Assembly (NCBI GenBank): GCA_965112155.1
Contig: OZ218104.1
Source: Podarcis liolepis
Taxonomy: Eukaryota
Reading direction: 5' to 3' (one strand)
DNA length: 64,000 bases
Positions 3,658-58,100 of the stretch are shown here, piece by piece. The notes beneath the pieces are model-generated. The model saw only the letters and a list, made by a program, of their open reading frames with translations. It was not told the origin of the DNA and ran no database searches. The translations under genes and the position numbers were made by a program. The number at the start of each line of letters is the position of its first letter. Positions within the stretch are counted from its first letter, which is position 1.

Positions 3658-4428
3658 CAAGATGAAGCCATTTGTTGTGAACAGTTGAACCAGCTAGGTA
3701 GCATCAAAGGTTAAGCATTCACACGAAATATCTTTGTTTTGTAATGTAAATTAGCAGGGATGGAGACCCATCACTGGGGGCCAAATACAGCCCTCCAAGT
3801 CTCACCATCCAGCCCATAAGAATGTTCTCAAGCCACACTTCCTCTCCCTATGTCACAACCCCCACTGCCCCTCCTTAAATATTTTTGACTGGCTGGAATG
3901 TGTCCTCTTGGTTGCCTAGATGGCAACATGGTTGTACGGTATTCATCAATCCAGGATTCACAGGAACTCTTCAATGAACTCAGTGAAGTGAATGTATAAC
4001 AAGGAACCAAGCTGGCCAACAGCTTATTGTTCACCAAGAACAATAAGTGGCTTCCTAGCAAGTGGGACTCAACATGTCTTGCAAAATGGGTCATTTGCAC
4101 CATTTGCTAGGCCTTTTGAGCTAGTCAACTAGTTAATGCCTCTACCTAAATGACGAAACTGTACCCTAGAATCCCAGATTCCCCATTTTTCAAAACAAGA
4201 AATGTTGTGAATAAGCACACAAGTGACTGCAATTCTACCTAACAGTGTGATTCTACACTCATGATTTCAGGTCCTGATAAGTGCCAATAACTAATGTTCA
4301 CATCAAAGCAGCTTGGTACTTGGAACTCTGACAGTTTTATTTAGTGATACCGTATTTTTCGCCCCATAAGACGCACTTTTTCCCCTCCAAAAATGAAGGG
4401 GAAATCGGGGTGCGTCTTATGGGGCGAA

Positions 4429-4850
4429 TGCCTGCAAGCCTCGCGCGCCCGGCAGGAGGTCCCACCGGGTGCGCGAGGCTTGGGGCAGCAGCCTGTCGCC
4501 CGAAGCACGGGGAGCCCTCCGGAGGGCTTCCCCTGCTTCGGGCGAGTGTCTGCAAGCCTCGCGCACCCGGCAGGAGGTCCCACCGGGTGCGCGAGGCTTG
4601 GGGCGGCAGCCTGTCGCCCGAAGCACGGGGAGCCCTTGGGAGGGTTCCCCCTGCTTCGGGCGAGTGTCTGCAAGCCTCGCGCACCCGGCAGGAGGTCCCA
4701 CCGGGTGCACGAGGCTTGGGGCGGCAGCCTGTCGCCCGAAGCACGGGGAGCCCTCGGGAGGGCTCCCCCTGCTTCGGGCGAGTGTCTGCAAGCCTCGCGC
4801 ACCCAGCAGGAGGTCCCACCGGGTGCGCGAGGCTTGGGGCGGCAGCCTGT
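4429..4850. repeat. Minisatellite array A, 118-bp unit x ~3.6, two hairpins per unit
   Basis: CTGCAAGCC recurs at 4432, 4550, 4668, 4786; stems AAGCCTCGCGCACCCGG/CCGGGTGCGCGAGGCTT and TCGCCCGAAGCA/TGCTTCGGGCGA. Confidence 0.95.
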
Positions 4851-5587
4851 GCTTCTAGGTCCGCGCAAGCAGTCCGCTAGCCTTGGGAGAGCCGCGCGGC
4901 TCTCCCAGGGCTAGCGGACTGCTTGCGCGCACGCAGAAGCTTGGGGCGCGCTGAGCTCGGCACGCCCCAAGCTTCTGGTGTAGCGCAGGGGTCTGCTAGC
5001 CCTGGGAGAGCCCCGTGGCTCTCCCAAGGCTAGCGGACTGCTTGCGCGCACCTAGAAGCTTGGGGCGCGCTGAGCTCAGCACGCCCCAAGCTCCTGGTGT
5101 AGCGCAGCGATCCGCTAGCCCTGGGAGAGCCCCGTGGCTCTCCCAAGGCTAGCGGACTGCTTGCGCGCACCTAGAAGCTTGGGGCGCGCTGAGCTCAGCA
5201 CGCCCCAAGCTCCTGGTGTAGCGCAGCGATCCGCTAGCCCTGGGAGAGTCCCGTGGCTCTCCCAAGGCTAGCTGACTGCTTGCGCGCACCTAGAAGCTTG
5301 GGGCGCGCTGAGCTCAGCACGCCCCAAGCTCCTGGTGTAGCGCAGCGATCCGCTAGCCCTGGGAGAGCCCCGCGGCTCTCCCAAGGCTAGCGGACTGCTT
5401 GCGCGCACGCAGAAGCTTGGGGCGCGCTGAGCTCGGCACGCCCCAAGCTTCTGGTGTAGCGCAGGGGTCCGCTAGCCCTGGGAGAGCCCCGCGGCTCTCC
5501 CAGGGCTAGCGGACTGCTTGCCGGCACGCAGAAGCTTGGAGCGCGCTGAGCTCCGCACGCCCCAAGCTCCTGGTGTAGCGCAGCGCA
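4851..5587. repeat. Minisatellite array B, 119-bp unit x ~6, two hairpins per unit
   Basis: GCTTG(C) recurs at 4921, 5040, 5159, 5278, 5397, 5516; hairpins CCGCTAGCC..GGGAGAGCC/GGCTCTCCC..GGCTAGCGG and AGCTTGGGGCG-GAGCTC-CGCCCCAAGCT. Confidence 0.95.
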
Positions 5588-5894
5588 CCTGGGGGGGGAA
5601 ATAAAATTTTTTTCCTTTATTTCCCCCCAAAAAAACTAGGTGCGTCTTATGGGCCGGTGCATCTTATGGGGCGAAAAATACGGTACTTCCATAAACCTAA
5701 AGCCACAAGACATGCAATAGCCATTTCAGAAGACCAGCCCTCATGGTTTGGTGAAAGACATCAATGCTTTGCAGATTCACCTGAACCCAAAAGATTGTGG
5801 AGCTCAGAAACCAAAAGGCAAAGGTTTGAAAATCCCAACAAGCTACCTAGCAGTGGCAGAGAACAAATAGCCAAAATAAATAAGTACATGTTGT

Positions 5895-6088
5895 AATAAA
5901 TTAAAAAAAAAAATTGTCCAGTAGCACCTTAGAGACCAACAAAGTTTGTTCTGGGTATAAGCTTCAGTGTGTATAATGCGCACAAAAGCTTATACCCAGA
6001 ACAAACTTAGTTGGTCTCTAAGGTGCTACTGGACAATTTTTTAATTTATTTCAACTGCGTCAGACCAACATGGCTACCTACCTGAATC
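5895..6088. mobile_element. Penelope-like retroelement remnant with a long inverted repeat
   Basis: ~57-bp arms (5908-5964 / 5986-6042, one mismatch) containing TCCAGTAGCACCTTAGAGACCAAC, recalled from reptile Penelope-derived repeats; 14-bp direct repeat TAAGTACATGTTGT at 5881-5894 and 6089-6102. Confidence 0.7.
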
Positions 6089-6466
6089 TAAGTACATGTT
6101 GTGTTACTCACATAAACAGTTTTATATGCAAAGTGTCAAGAGAAATAATTTCTTGAGAAAGTTTCCATTTCTGATTTCCATACATGGAAACTGCTTTTGT
6201 GAGATATTGCTTAACACTCTCTCCACAGGATACTGAACATAAGTGACTAAAGTAGTTATCAATATACCCAAAGAATGCCAACAAACCTCTTGCTACAAAA
6301 TGGGACCAAATTTATCAAACAAGAAATGCTTCAATTTGTTGCTGGCTAGTTCTTAAACCATCATGACTTAAAAAGGAATGATGCTCATGTATCTGGAATA
6401 ATTTACTTGGGTGTACACTCACCTGTGAGCCAATTCAGAAGAGTCATCAAGCTAGAGGGAATAAAA

Positions 6467-6656
6467 GAATCATAAACATGTACAGTTAGAAGGGACCCCA
6501 AGGGTCATCTAGCCCAAACCCCTTGTAATGCAGGAATCTCAGCTAAAGCATCCATGAGAGATGGTCATCCAACCTCTGCTTAAAAACCTCCATGGAAGGA
6601 GAGTCCACAACCTCCCAAGGGAGACTGTTCCACTGTCAAACAGCTCTTACTGTCAG
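6467..6656 (-). mobile_element. CR1 LINE 3' fragment
   Basis: Reverse of the CR1 3' end (agaatcat...gaagggacccc aagggtcatctag...ttccactgtcaaacagctcttactgtcag). Confidence 0.7.
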
Positions 6657-7558
6657 ATACGGTACTTTTTCCAAACCTCAATATCCAAAAAGGCCAAATC
6701 TGAGAAACGGGTCAAGATCCCACTAGTAAAACTTAAGATTCAGAATTTATTCTAATCATAGATTGGGAGGAGTGTTTAATGCACGTATGTATGTACATAC
6801 ACTTCTGCACATCAGGAAAGAGAGATTATTCAATTTCAAACATAAATGTTTCAGATTAACATTTTAGCTTTATTGGTGCTATAGCTTAGCAGGGCAACAA
6901 TATATTTCATTTTAATAGAAGAAAAAGAACCAAGCTTAAAAAAGAGCCGCCTCGACTCCATTTTGCAACCTGCTCTACCCTGCACTTGTCTGATCCACAG
7001 CAGGACCCACTGCAGTGAATGCACTGCCTCCTCTGTCCTTTCTCCTGCCTTTGCAGCTGGGCACCTGTATGCCTCAACACACTCAATCATTTTGAAGAGA
7101 GCAAACAAAAGCAAAGAAGCCGTTGAATCTGGCTAGGTCACCCTCCCCAAACACATTGGGTTAATTCAGAGTAGCAGCTGTGGCAGAAGCATTCTACGTG
7201 TAGCTGCCTGATAATCCCTTCAGTTCTGCTCTCAATTCCATCCATCCAAATGAGGTCAGGTCAAAATCACTGTAAACAGCAAAATTAGGCAACCACCCCA
7301 AACTCCAGCTAAGAACAGGAGCTGGAGAAGTACAGGTAAGACACCAGATGATTCTGTCCTAAATAGCCACTTACAGTGATCAAAATCAGAGCTTCTGAGC
7401 ATCCTACACATTCCAAAGGAATCTCCATTTTTTCCAGGACATGCAACATGCATGTATGTAGGTGAAAGGAAGCCCAGAACATCTTTGGCATGGAAAAGGC
7501 AACAGATTCCATTTATTCCATAACACCACAACACAGCTCTTTAATAGATGCTTTAGAG

Positions 7559-7694
7559 AAGGAATAGGCAAACTCAGCCCTCCAGATGTTTTGGGACTAC
7601 AACTCCCATCATCCCTAGCTAACAGGACCAGTGGTCAGGGGTGATGGGAGTTGTAGTCCCAAAACATCTGGAGGGCCGAGTTTGCCTATGCCTA
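7559..7694. mobile_element. Palindromic hAT-type MITE (ACTACAACTCCC family)
   Basis: Whole element is an imperfect palindrome; perfect 8-bp TSD CTTTAGAG (7551-7558, 7695-7702). Confidence 0.85.
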
Positions 7695-7851
7695 CTTTAG
7701 AGTGTTGTGTCCCTTGGCTTATGACATTTTCATCCAATAACATCACCACTGGTGGCTGCAACCACACTCAAATTTCACAGCTATAGCATCCAAGCACAAC
7801 AAAGCAATAGCACTTCGCTACAGTTTGTTGAACATGCAGCATCAATAGTTA

Positions 7852-8797
7852 CCGTATTTTTCGTCCTATAGGACGCACTTTTTCTCCTCCAAAAAATGAA
7901 GGGGAAATCTGGGTGCGTCCTATGGGGCGAATGCAGGCTTTCGCTGAAACTTGGAGAGCGAGAGGGGTCGGTGCGCACCGACCCCTCTCGCTCTCCAGGC
8001 TTCAGGAAGACATCCGCAGCCTAGGTAGCCCTGCGGGAGTTACCCGCAGGGCTTCCCACGCTGCGGATAGCAGCCTGCCGCCCGGTGGGCGGGGCGCCCT
8101 GAAGCAGAACGCCCCGCGCGCCGGACAGACATCCACAGCGTGGGGAGCCCTGCAGGAGTTCCCCGCAGGGCTCCCCACGCTGCGGATAGCAGCCTGCTGC
8201 CCGGCGGGCGGGGCGCCCTGGAGCAGAGCTCCCCTCGCACCGGGCATACATCCGCAGCGTGGGGAGCCCTGCAGGAGTTCCCCGCAGGGCTCCCCACGCT
8301 GCGGATAGCAGCCTGCTGCCTGGCGGGCGGGGCGCCCTGGAGCAGAGCTCCCCTCGCACCGGGCATACATCCGCAGCGTGGGGAGCCCTGCAGGAGTTCC
8401 CCGCAGGGCTCCCCACGCTGCGGATAGCAGCCTGCTGCCCGGCGGGCGGGGCGCCCTGGAGCAGAGCTCCCCTCGCACCGGGCATACATCCGCAGCGTGG
8501 GGAGCCCTGCAGGAGTTCCCCGCAGGGCTCCCCACGCTGCGGATAGCAGCCTGCCGCCCAGCGGGCGGGGCGCCCTGAAGCAGGGCGCCCCTCGCGCCGG
8601 GCAGACATCGGCCAGCCCCACAAGCTCAGGGGACAGCAGGGAGGCGCAGCGCCACCATCCCGCTGTTCCTCGACCTGGTTCGGTTTCCCCGACCTGCTTT
8701 TGGGGGGGAAATAAAGGAATTTCCCCCCCTTAATTTCCCCCCAAAAAAACTAGCTGCGTCCTATGGGACGGAGCGTCCTATGGGACGAAAAATACGG
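7852..8797. mobile_element. Second non-autonomous Tc2/Kanga-like DNA transposon carrying a GC-rich minisatellite
   Basis: TIRs CCGTATTTTTCGTCC.../...GGACGAAAAATACGG; TA at 7850-51 and 8798-99; subterminal TAGGACGC-type repeats x4; terminal segments homologous to the 4350-5683 element. Confidence 0.85.
8011..8605. repeat. Minisatellite array C, 119-bp unit x 5, two hairpins per unit
   Basis: CATCC recurs at 8011, 8130, 8249, 8368, 8487; 23-bp stem ATCCGCAGCGTGGGGAGCCCTGC/GCAGGGCTCCCCACGCTGCGGAT. Confidence 0.95.
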
Positions 8798-11295
8798 TAC
8801 TTCCTATTTCCCTTTAAACACTGCACACAACTTCTCTCAGGTTGTCTTCTGGCCTAGTGTTTGAGGCATTAGCAAAACAGACAAGAACATTGGGGTATTA
8901 ACAAGACTGGTGATGCAATAGTGAGACCCACGAGAAATGAATGTCCAAAGTCTAACCAGCTGGGCAAGCAGTTTTTCTTTTGTTTTGGCTTTTTGCGAAG
9001 GTGCAGTATTTTCATTTACACTGTCAAGTCATAATGCACAGCACTGCCAAGGAGCTGCCTGCACTGCAGTCAAACCCTTTCTGAACAAGTAAACCAAAGA
9101 AGCAAGCTACCAGTGTGAATGAGCCATGAAGGTAATTAGCAATGGCGGAATTCAGCTCTTTAAACAATAGACTTTTGGACAGCATGTTAATTATTTTAGC
9201 ATGATTCCACCATGCAACCATCCCTCCTTTAATTCCCACGCAAACATTGACCAATCACAACAGGCACACTTTGAACTAAGCACAGCGTAGTCCTCCCAAA
9301 AACACACCATCTAATAAATGATCCTGAACACATGAACACACACATTTAAAAGGTGTGGTCTATGAACAACTGTTACAGAAATTTAAAGCAAAGGTTGTCA
9401 AAGTTTAGCCCAGTTAGTTTTCCTAGTTCCAAATAAACAAAATAACAGGTAACTAGATCCAACAGGTCAGCTTTGGCTGCAAGCAACACAAGCAGTGGTC
9501 TGCATCCTAACAGCTGAGCCCCAGCCGGATGTTTGATCATGGGGAAACCCCTCTGCATATGGCTTTGTAAAAGGGAAGAACCCATTAAGGCTCAGCTGTA
9601 AACCTGCTTGTGGATGAGAGTGCCAGGTCTGGAAGCTGCACGTGTCAGGCAGGATGTCCCCAGGAGACAATGATAATAAGGGCATTAGCATCAATCAATA
9701 AAGGGTATCAATCAGTTGCCAATAAATCAAAAAAGGCATATTTTAAAATTCTAGTCATCCTGAGCCCAGAACCCCTTTGGCAAAGTCCTGATTTCCTCAC
9801 ATGTTGGTTTTGAATTTTAAAACTATTAATAACTTGGGACCAGGTACATGAAGGATCGTCAGTCTCCACATTTACATACCTGGACCTTAAATTTTTCTTC
9901 TGTGGCTCTTCTTTGGATGTTTCCATTGGGGAAGGTGCAGTGAGTGGCTATTAGGTAAAGGTACTTATGAGTGGTGGTACCTCTACTACAGAAGGTCCTC
10001 CCCAAGAAAAGCACGTCTGTTGTCTACCTTTGACAGCATATCAGCACCAGGCAAAGGCCTTTTTACTTTCCCAGGCTTTTTAATCTGCTCCAGGTCTTAC
10101 GTCAGTTAGTTTTGTCTTTGCCATTTTTTATGCACCATTGCCATTTCATATGTGCTATTGTTGACCTATTTTACAGTATGCATTGTAACTTGCTTTTATT
10201 CTTCTTGTAAGCATCCCTGAGGACATTTATAATGTTTAAAATTAAGAAAGAAAAAAGGTTGTGCGTGTTTACACCAGTTTCTGCAGATCCTACTGGTAGC
10301 AAATTTGCTGTGTAAGCAAACTAAAATGGTATTTACTTCCCCTTTCTGCACATAAGAATGCAATTCATACCCTGTGTCCTTAGCAGTTGTGCCAGTGCAA
10401 GTTTGATTCCCAGCACTGCCACAAAGGCACTAGTTGTGCTTTCAAGCTGGTCTTCTAATCCCAATTATTGATGTACTTGAAGTACTTCAGGAAATAATAA
10501 GATACTCAGCAAGAAATTAGTTATTGACTATGCAGTCTGGAAAGGCAGAACATGGTCCAGAAAACAACTTCCTGTCTGCAGCCCAGGTTCATTGTGCGAA
10601 ATCTATTAGAACTGTTACATTTTATGACAAGGGAGGGAAAAGCTGATCATTGACCTCCAAGGCCAGCAATACTAATAGTGATCATTTTTTAAAATGCCAC
10701 TGATTTTTAAACAGGCTACAAAAGTTCCCCAAAAATGTGCACACCCAAATTCTGCATGCAGAGCTATGACAAAATAAAATGCTGTGGGTGGATTCAACAG
10801 GAGCGCAGCTTAGTAGACGTCACCTTTCCTGTACTTCCTGCAGCTTTCTAAGAAAGGTTCTACAGTGGGCTGATAAAGTCCATATTAGAACATCTGTTAA
10901 CAGTTTTAACTGCATTAGCTCCTGGTCCATTTCTGGCCCAATTCAAGGTGCTGGTCATGACCTTAAATGGCTCTGAACCATATACCTCAAGGGCAAACCA
11001 CATTATACAAACATTGGCCCAGGTGTTAACCTCCTTTTGCTGTTAGAAGATGCTGGGATCGGTGGGCAGCTGCTCCATGTCATGAGCCACTGAACTGCAG
11101 GCAGCAACTTTTGGGTGAAGTGCCCTCAGGCTCTGGACTTACTCTGCCCACCCAAGTTGGCCATTGGCTCCTTTGGGACAGGAAAGAGTTTAAGAGGGCT
11201 TTCTGCTGCAGTTGCTTAGGCAACAAAGTGCTCTGAGCTCTGGTATATGCTTTGGCAGTTCTTCAGTTGGCATGCTGCTAAATCTTGCCTCATTT

Positions 11296-16605: not shown

Positions 16606-16969
16606 CCGTATTTTTTGCACCATAACACTCACTTTTTTCCTCCTAAAAAGTAAGGGGAAATGTCTGTGCGTGTTATGGAGCGAGTGCCTGCGGGTGGCGG
16701 GGGGGATCTGCTGCAGTCGTGAGCAGAGGATCCATGGTTCCCCTTCCTTCCCTCCTCCGTGGTTACAAAACATGGATCCACATGGATCCTCAGGATTTTT
16801 GCATTGGGCTACTCCAAACTCACTGTCAGATCACATGTCTGTGGCCACAGCATGAACCACAAAAATCATATATCCACTATTTCGTTTAGAATATTTTTTT
16901 CTTGTTTTCCTCCTCTAAAAACTACGTGTGTGTTATGGTCTGGTGCGTGTTATAGAGCGAAAAATACGG
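16606..16969. mobile_element. Third, short Tc2/Kanga-like non-autonomous DNA transposon (no array)
   Basis: CCGTATTTTTT.../...GAAAAATACGG termini; TA at 16604-05 and 16970-71; subterminal TAACAC(G/T/A)CAC-type repeats x4. Confidence 0.8.
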
Positions 16970-57968: not shown

Positions 57969-58100
57969 NNNNNNNNNNNNNNNNNNNNNNNNNNNNNNNN
58001 NNNNNNNNNNNNNNNNNNNNNNNNNNNNNNNNNNNNNNNNNNNNNNNNNNNNNNNNNNNNNNNNNNNNNNNNNNNNNNNNNNNNNNNNNNNNNNNNNNNN
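57969..58100. other. Assembly gap (132 N)
   Basis: Run of N. Confidence 1.

What the first reader, a model, noticed from the sequence alone, without database searches (positions are those of the whole stretch)
4350..8797. Tc2-type DNA transposons acting as carriers of ~119-bp double-hairpin tandem arrays
Seen: two non-autonomous elements 2 kb apart share homologous termini (CCGTA...TACGG, TA duplication, a 5' hairpin and a GGGGGGAAAT/ATTTCCCCCC hairpin). Their interiors are three different GC-rich arrays: A 118 bp x3.6, B 119 bp x6, C 119 bp x5. Every unit folds into two adjacent stem-loops, and the period stays at 118-119 bp although primary sequences diverge strongly. Established: CCGTA termini with TA TSD are typical of TcMar-Tc2/Kanga (MER104-like) elements, and MITE-internal tandem repeats can seed satellites. 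Inference: this looks like a modular TIR-chassis plus structured-repeat cassette in which fold and period, not sequence, are retained. It could be a satellite-generating or structured-RNA-producing system.
Basis: partly seen in the sequence, partly recalled or inferred. Interest (0 to 1): 0.72.

Follow-up and report, generated by a model that had tools for sequence, protein, structure and literature searches.

The report
Accordion hairpin arrays in Passer MITEs
These are short, non-coding copies of a cut-and-paste jumping gene whose insides are chains of DNA hairpins that have been duplicated and flipped many times, likely by the copying enzyme folding back and switching templates, so they offer a natural record of that copying error and show no sign of being a structured-RNA gene.

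Summary
The sequence is as described: two TA-flanked elements (4350-5683, 7852-8797) with 27-bp CCGTA terminal repeats and three GC-rich arrays. They are MITEs of a Passer (pogo, DD35D) transposon: 7,246 exact end-motif hits genome-wide, and a 3,935-bp copy with an intact 425-aa transposase carries a homologous 119-bp array, which explains the shared period by descent. Period is not conserved family-wide: 4 of 21 arrays in a 77-element sample are 118-119 bp (range 61-148). The interiors are hairpin chains. The young 148-bp array is one 74-bp segment in alternating orientation; 46 such copies, with ends nearly identical in the 26 measured, show 17 unit orders, flipped loops and inverted blocks. 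Stems do keep pairing while sequence changes (18 of 47 pairs changed on both sides), but G·T and A·C mismatches are equal (551:518), so no strand-specific RNA signature. Best reading: template switching at hairpins (small inverted triplications, arm copying) plus slippage. No free satellite was found.

The parts
4350..5683 (+). Element 1 (W1), 1,334-bp non-autonomous Passer MITE, TA on both sides (4348-4349, 5684-5685)
   Evidence: empty site with one TA in run X20
4350..4376 (+). Left TIR, 27 bp
   Evidence: 1 mismatch to right TIR
4358..4428 (+). 5' subterminal hairpin (inverted second copy of the TIR motif)
   Evidence: z -8.8
4422..4850 (+). Array A, 118 bp x3.6, hairpins H2 and H1 with centres 62/56 apart
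4851..4940 (.). A/B junction palindrome centred on hairpin H4: 41 of 45 arm positions complementary, against about 23-nt arms for H4 inside array B; a fold-back signature
4873..5585 (+). Array B, 119 bp x6, hairpins H4 and H3 with centres 60/59 apart; the two spacers are decayed reverse complements
   Evidence: 34 of 5000 shuffles
5593..5628 (+). 3' G-run/C-run subterminal hairpin shared with the autonomous copy; weak
5657..5683 (-). Right TIR, 27 bp
7852..8797 (+). Element 2 (W2), 946-bp non-autonomous Passer MITE, TA on both sides
7940..8007 (+). Hairpin H0, shared with the 5' end of autonomous copy L201
   Evidence: 155 of 166 positions over the 5' end
8008..8609 (+). Array C, 119 bp x5.1, 75% identical to the array of the autonomous copy; first hairpin (8010-8069) has a D-type left arm and C-type right arm, later units have matched arms
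16606..16969 (+). Third, 364-bp array-free element of the same superfamily lineage, TA-flanked

Best explanation
These are non-autonomous MITE copies of a Passer (pogo-superfamily, DD35D) DNA transposon whose interior is a chain of GC-rich hairpins, and the arrays were likely built by replication or repair template switching at those hairpins followed by direct slippage. SHOWN: membership, an autonomous copy with an intact transposase and a homologous 119-bp array, alternating orientation of the 74-bp half in the 148-bp arrays, loops and multi-unit blocks in both orientations, palindromic junctions. INFERRED: a polymerase leaving one hairpin arm re-primes on the other arm or strand, copies back to the neighbouring hairpin and returns, giving a small inverted triplication whose period is twice the distance between hairpin centres; the same switching flips loops and overwrites one arm with the other, which keeps stems paired without selection on an RNA; slippage between direct copies then changes copy number; transposase in trans spreads each variant. 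UNTESTED: that this happens during gap repair after excision rather than ordinary replication.
For: [quoted passage not shown] 148-bp units: centres 74/74 in 23 of 23 arrays, self-reverse-complement identity 0.82-0.95 vs 0.42-0.45 shuffled; periods 89 (6 of 7), 120, 113, 68 and 60 also have centres exactly half a period apart. Parents with a single H2-spacer-H3 and unrelated outer flanks exist (L006, L009, L029), while arrays carry the reverse complement of the 30-bp spacer, which direct duplication cannot make. First H2 loop is in one orientation in 33 of 33 elements, both orientations occur in 24 of 33. In 46 elements with a reversed half: 15 have the alternative half reversed, 11 of 37 mix loop orientations inside the array, 17 different unit orders, with termini about 0.2% from consensus in the 26 elements measured. 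In-window palindromic junction 4851-4940. Two-sided stem changes at 18 of 47 pairs, often adjacent, with G·T 551 vs A·C 518, p 0.33. The mechanism has precedent: small inverted triplications (PMC13334657) and hairpin maintenance by template switching (bioRxiv 10.1101/2021.04.15.439925).
Against: For A, C and D the stems fill nearly the whole unit and centres are 62/56 or 63/56 apart, so a mirror origin is not demonstrated; single-unit C elements with short direct repeats at both unit ends (L075, L127) fit plain slippage. Any tandem of two abutting hairpins has centres about half a period apart, so spacing alone is weak. Some arrays have one or no hairpin centre (66, 106, 109; the 112-114 and 92 arrays of other subfamilies). 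Finished sequences cannot separate polymerase switching from recombination between inverted repeats. Many copies inherit a pattern from one master, so 46 elements are not 46 events. The W1-like and 148 sets were chosen by similarity, not at random.
Confidence: 0.72

Rival explanations
1. Flips come from recombination or gene conversion between inverted repeats (within a copy or between dispersed copies) after one or a few founding inverted duplications; arrays otherwise grow by ordinary slippage or unequal exchange.
For: Inverted blocks begin and end at hairpin arms; aRb (123) and its reverse complement bFa (46) dominate the units and occur in runs; direct neighbours differ by 2.0 and inverted neighbours by 5.4 of 57 nt, so most growth is direct.
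Against: Does not by itself create the reversed 30-bp spacer, nor the separate mirror arrays of periods 89, 68, 60, 113 and 120 on other hairpin pairs, nor the 45-bp-arm junction in W1; these need several founding fold-backs.
Confidence: 0.17
2. The hairpin chain is kept by selection on the element itself: as a CpG-rich promoter region of the transposase gene, or as DNA structure that improves excision, repair-copying or insertion.
For: In L201 the array lies between the left TIR and the transposase gene; CpG o/e 0.70-0.76 vs 0.29 in the window; hairpin-rich subfamilies are young and numerous.
Against: Other stop-free autonomous copies (L182, L184, L186) have no such array, and L183/L185 have a non-symmetric one; 56 of 77 sampled MITEs have no array and the commonest short type is about 259 bp; only one autonomous copy with this array was found among 40 scored of 1,162 candidates.
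Confidence: 0.12
3. One reading: a cassette selected to keep a two-hairpin fold and a 118-119 bp period, making structured RNA or seeding satellites.
For: Strong folds; 18 of 47 pairs with two-sided change, 0 of 500 shuffles as high; 118-119 shared by A, B, C and D.
Against: 4 of 21 sampled arrays at 118-119; homology explains the shared period; no G·T excess on the sense strand; loops and blocks flip freely; no Rfam match; 882 exact half-unit motifs genome-wide and no array beyond 13.9 units.
Confidence: 0.06
4. The mixed orientations are long-read or assembly artefacts at palindromes.
For: Palindromes are prone to sequencing fold-back errors (own knowledge).
Against: The same unit orders recur at separate loci (for example bFa..bFb in 5, aFa..aRb in 5); contigs of four other runs hold the modules, and loose ends in three of them show the H2-to-spacer junction that underlies the 148-bp type.
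Confidence: 0.02

Closest known systems
Passer (PS) family, pogo superfamily; PasserC of lizards (PMC7386202, PMC9976928)
   Same: [quoted passage not shown] The Anolis PasserC TIR row is near-identical to this TIR, and the first ~100 nt of the Podarcis muralis row match autonomous copies L182/L187 by eye (not aligned by a tool).
   Different: The window elements have no ORF. The hairpin chain, the L201-type array and the MITE progeny were not seen in the passages read ('MITE' and 'tandem' occur 0 times in the main text of PMC9976928); supplement sequences were seen only as cut cells.
MITEs with internal tandem arrays: DTC84 (PMC3879986), Xenopus miDNA4 and Xstir (as reviewed in PMC12628747)
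   Same: Conserved ends with a variable number of internal repeats; palindromes or stem-loops proposed as hotspots.
   Different: DTC84 repeats all lie in one orientation with a 12-nt palindrome; here the unit is almost wholly two hairpins, half-units alternate, blocks flip, new periods arise from new hairpin neighbours, and no free satellite was found.
Small inverted triplications (PMC13334657) and TRP/INV at palindromes (bioRxiv 10.1101/2025.01.14.632981)
   Same: Direct-inverted-direct structure of about 100-200 bp with palindromic junctions, attributed to template switching or fold-back.
   Different: Those are rare, transient somatic or mutant events; here they are fixed, iterated and multiplied by transposition.
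Template-switch maintenance of hairpins (bioRxiv 10.1101/2021.04.15.439925)
   Same: Multi-base two-sided stem changes and loop inversions.
   Different: Described for functional RNA genes under selection; here in transposon DNA with no strand-specific signature.
Drosophila Foldback4 (PMC2955051)
   Same: Non-autonomous DNA elements with modular, palindromic, variably repeated interiors.
   Different: Foldback palindromes are long terminal arms; here TIRs are short and the symmetry is internal and local.

Membership tests
Passer (pogo superfamily) | TA target-site duplication | tested here: met
   188 of 204 distinct closed elements TA/TA; empty site with one TA
Passer (pogo superfamily) | Short TIR (<30 bp) starting CCGTA | tested here: met
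   27 bp; published rows CCGTA/CCGTA
Passer (pogo superfamily) | DD35D transposase in the autonomous partner | tested here: met
   L201 D172, D279, D315, 35 residues between the last two
Passer (pogo superfamily) | [quoted passage not shown] | tested here: met
   425 aa, 3,935 bp, three Pfam hits over cut-off
Passer (pogo superfamily) | Placement in the Passer clade of a DDE tree | not tested
   No tree built; reference proteins not held
MITE | Non-coding, TIR-bounded, high copy, ends shared with an autonomous element | tested here: met
   7,246 end-motif hits, control 0; end identity to L201
MITE | Short and uniform length | tested here: inconclusive
   Median 461 bp but 235-1,640 bp in the sample, up to 2,358 bp
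TcMar-Tc2 / MER104 / Kanga library entries | Match to a Dfam or Repbase consensus | not testable with these tools
   No such library here; equivalence of the Tc2 label and Passer is recalled, PMC7325037 passages place gecko and snake elements in a TC2-like clade
Satellite DNA | Long arrays free of element ends | tested here: not met
   55 of 60 best array loci closed by both TIRs, 2 more are the autonomous copy, 3 showed one TIR; longest 13.9 units; 882 motif hits in all; only 40 candidates scored per search
Structured non-coding RNA | Two-sided stem covariation | tested here: met
   18 of 47 pairs; structure taken from one member and rows are related
Structured non-coding RNA | Strand-specific tolerance of G·U over A·C | tested here: not met
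   551 vs 518 in 636 distinct hairpins, p 0.33
Structured non-coding RNA | Defined transcript or small RNA | not testable with these tools
   No run on record as RNA was listed
Small inverted triplication | Direct-inverted-direct copy with hairpins at both junctions and an unduplicated parent | tested here: met
   148-bp type: parents L006/L009/L029 vs L174 and longer arrays
Small inverted triplication | Same origin for arrays A, C, D | tested here: inconclusive
   Centres 62/56 and 63/56, short spacers; B spacers mirror at 34 of 5000 shuffles

The most novel reading that the evidence does not exclude
Repair of the gap left by Passer excision works as an in vivo rolling-hairpin (LAMP-like) amplifier: the polymerase shuttles between neighbouring hairpins on both strands, so the transposon interior evolves as a self-symmetrising accordion that invents new repeat units faster than it gains point mutations, and hairpin-rich variants are favoured because they are copied more. 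This would be a transposition-coupled route to palindromic minisatellites and to apparently compensatory stems with no RNA function.
Probability: 0.17. Interest if true: 0.78.

Novelty: new variant of a known kind. Interest (0 to 1): 0.5.

Why it matters
Two-sided stem changes are commonly taken as proof of a selected RNA structure. Here they occur in transposon DNA with no strand preference, next to direct traces of fold-back copying, in hundreds of near-identical young copies. That makes the template-switch account of hairpin origin and upkeep testable on a large, apparently neutral natural series, with parents, intermediates and products all in one genome. It also shows small inverted triplications, otherwise seen as rare transient errors, being fixed, iterated and spread by a transposon, scattering CpG-rich palindromes through a vertebrate genome. 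An intact Passer with matching ends makes a cell assay feasible. The transposon family itself is known.

Tried and rejected
Top DDE_1 hits (L091-L120) were not the partner: where TIR pairs were found (4 of 30) they start CAGTGG, Tigger-like; the partner came from lower-scoring hits. Loop-orientation count (11 of 34) used an ambiguous pattern and was replaced. Alignment A3 had one row reversed by the aligner; that row (L037a) was dropped for A4. Excision footprints: solo TA-CGG-TA looked enriched in the window (12 matches vs 1.3 expected, 6 at element ends) but not in 200 kb of other DNA (6 vs 5, 6, 3 for other CpG triplets): rejected. Expression: no RNA holder listed; contigs of four runs only guessed to be RNA cover the transposase ORF of related copies, show no splice joint and cannot show start or strand, so the idea of a 5' UTR intron and array promoter stays untested. 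Rfam: 0 matches in 4000-9200. ORFs over the arrays are stop-poor GC repeats and were not pursued. Earlier scan notes: nothing by place, words or sequence except an unrelated Penelope stub. No other eukaryote genomes or Dfam/Repbase were available. Structure prediction and protein database searches were not needed.
Full report
Observation. The window holds two TA-flanked elements, 4350-5683 (W1) and 7852-8797 (W2), with 27-bp terminal inverted repeats starting CCGTA. TRF gives arrays A (118 x3.6), B (119 x6.0) and C (119 x5.1) at the stated places. The end motif occurs 6 times against 0.06 expected and reveals a third, array-free 364-bp element at 16606-16969. Single units fold far better than shuffles (z -10.0, -9.4, -6.2), A and B as two clean stems, the tested C copy with only its first stem clean; the 3' G/C-run hairpin is weak, z -1.6. 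A contig of run X20 joins 4349 to 5687 with one letter between, an empty site with a single TA, while run X22 has the element at this site: the insertion is real and differs between organism labels.

Family. A 29-nt end pattern has 7,246 exact matches in the 1.57-Gb genome, control 0. Among lower DDE_1 hits I found autonomous copies with the same ends; a protein search gave 84 matches, 6 of them full-length without stops. L201 is 3,935 bp, TA/TA, with a 425-aa ORF, DD35D spacing and BrkDBD, HTH_Tnp_Tc5 and DDE_1 domains: the definition of Passer in PMC7386202 (passages) and PMC9976928 (passages and one results section). Supplement rows list an Anolis PasserC with a near-identical TIR and a Podarcis muralis element whose start matches L182/L187 by eye (cells were cut, so interiors were not seen). 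The host is therefore likely a lacertid lizard (inference). L201 is the closest autonomous relative found: W2's first 166 nt match at 155 positions, W1's ends at 81/85 and 84/91, and it carries its own 119-bp x12.4 double-hairpin array (D) upstream of the transposase, 75% identical to C and 66% to A. Unit alignment scores link A-C, A-D, C-D, B-C and B-D (52-122 vs 22-27 shuffled) but not A-B directly (30). The shared period is thus common descent.

Period is not conserved. From 90 places taken from the first 100 pattern hits on contig C1 (six re-fetched in 18) I recovered 77 closed elements, including a few incidental neighbours; places without a recognisable second end were dropped. 72 are TA/TA, median 461 bp; 21 have an array, with periods 61-148, and 4 are 118-119. 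Among copies closest to W1 the commonest period is 148.

Anatomy. Interiors are chains of GC-rich hairpin modules. In 23 of 23 arrays of period 148 the two palindromic centres are 74/74 apart and the unit is 82-95% identical to its own reverse complement (shuffles 42-45%); periods 89 (6 of 7), 120, 113, 68 and 60 also show exact half-period spacing, B 60/59, A 62/56, D 63/56; arrays of other subfamilies (112-114, 92) have no symmetry. Spacing alone is weak evidence, since two abutting hairpins give it anyway. The decisive case is 148: elements exist with one H2-spacer-H3 and unrelated outer flanks (L006, L009, L029), whereas arrays insert the reverse complement of the 30-bp spacer after H3, a direct-inverted-direct triplication. 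The first H2 loop has one orientation in 33 of 33 elements, and both orientations occur in 24 of 33. In the pooled set of 204 distinct closed elements (188 TA/TA; enriched by similarity searches), 46 have a reversed half; units are aRb 123, its reverse complement bFa 46, aFa 21, aRa 18, bFb 7 and rarer forms; 11 of 37 multi-unit arrays mix loop orientations; 17 unit orders occur; in the 26 elements found by the 148-array search the termini have median 0 and mean about 0.2% difference from consensus, the three most divergent left out of the mean. In W1 itself the A/B junction is a palindrome with 41 of 45 arm positions paired, against about 23 for the same hairpin inside B, and B's two spacers are decayed mirror images (34 of 5,000 shuffles). 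In W2 the first hairpin has a D-type left arm and a C-type right arm; later units have matched arms.

Fold without RNA signature. On 11 homologous A/C/D-type units, 85% of cells pair and 18 of 47 pairs change on both sides (shuffles mean 7.9, slid controls at most 9; structure taken from D and rows related, so this is not a probability). Yet across 636 distinct hairpins in transposase-sense orientation G·T and A·C mismatches are 551 and 518 (p 0.33); an RNA selected on one strand would be expected to favour G·U (own knowledge), though flipping itself would erode such a bias. Rfam has no match. No satellite: the best array hits are TIR-bounded (55 of 60 loci closed, longest 2,358 bp; 40 candidates scored of 1,162 and of 1,026) and a 34-nt half-unit motif has 882 matches genome-wide.

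Mechanism. Shown: membership, descent of the arrays, mirror structure, flips. Inferred: synthesis leaves one hairpin arm, re-primes on the partner arm or other strand, runs back to the neighbouring hairpin and returns; the period is twice the centre distance; repeated switching flips loops and copies arms; slippage then expands units (direct neighbours differ by 2.0, inverted by 5.4 of 57 nt); transposase spreads variants. All frequent unit types can be read as paths between the two strands of one short master (my reasoning). Recombination between inverted repeats can explain flips but not the several founding inversions. Whether excision-gap repair is the occasion is untested. For A, C and D a mirror origin is not demonstrated.

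Literature. Repeat-bearing MITEs are known: DTC84 with same-orientation repeats (PMC3879986, passages), miDNA4 and Xstir (review PMC12628747, passages), modular Foldback4 (PMC2955051, passages). Small inverted triplications: PMC13334657 (abstract and Discussion) and bioRxiv 10.1101/2025.01.14.632981 (abstract). Template-switch hairpins: bioRxiv 10.1101/2021.04.15.439925 (abstract and opening); PMC10710096 seen as listing only. PMC7325037 passages. Ten searches showed no paper describing alternating hairpin arrays inside Passer or lizard MITEs; the library lacks most subscription papers and Dfam/Repbase were not available. The rolling-hairpin and LAMP analogies are recalled, from no call.

Verdict. 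A known transposon family and a known class of repeat-bearing MITE, with an interior dynamic I could not find described: new variant of a known kind, interest 0.5.

Noticed in passing
window 16606-16969: Third element of the same TIR lineage, 364 bp, no array, ends 83-93% like autonomous L182/L186.
   Followed up: partly
L091-L120 and further hits: A large young Tigger-like family (CAGTGG ends where found) with dozens of stop-free 575-646-aa frames; possibly active.
   Followed up: no
L183, L185, L202 5' regions; L220: Other Passer subfamilies carry non-symmetric direct arrays (112-114 bp, 243-256 bp, 92 bp) upstream of the transposase; the 5' region seems generally repeat-prone.
   Followed up: partly
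L201, between array and ORF: Candidate splice donor and a pyrimidine tract with AG just before the start codon suggest a 5' UTR intron; a short vertebrate MITE-like piece lies inside it.
   Followed up: partly
L192 (G000:C1:4331900-4337000): A 1,290-codon open frame of an LTR-retroelement pol type beside a MITE.
   Followed up: no
window 5899-6051 and 7551-7702: Two other short palindromic elements (76-nt and 66-nt arms, 89-91% complementary), unrelated to the Passer ends.
   Followed up: no
window 3935, 6658, 23172, 25526, 31375, 34859: Solo TACGGTA motifs resembling excision footprints; not enriched in 200 kb elsewhere.
   Followed up: yes
L042_1502, L123_102, L223: Copies with deletions that remove one arm of hairpin H0 or start at its loop, suggesting hairpin-guided deletion as well as duplication.
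   Followed up: no
stems of pooled hairpins: C·C and G·G mismatches (153, 125) outnumber A·G and C·T (113, 92) among distinct hairpins; unexplained, may reflect composition or local flips.
   Followed up: no
window 57969-58100: Run of 132 N.
   Followed up: no
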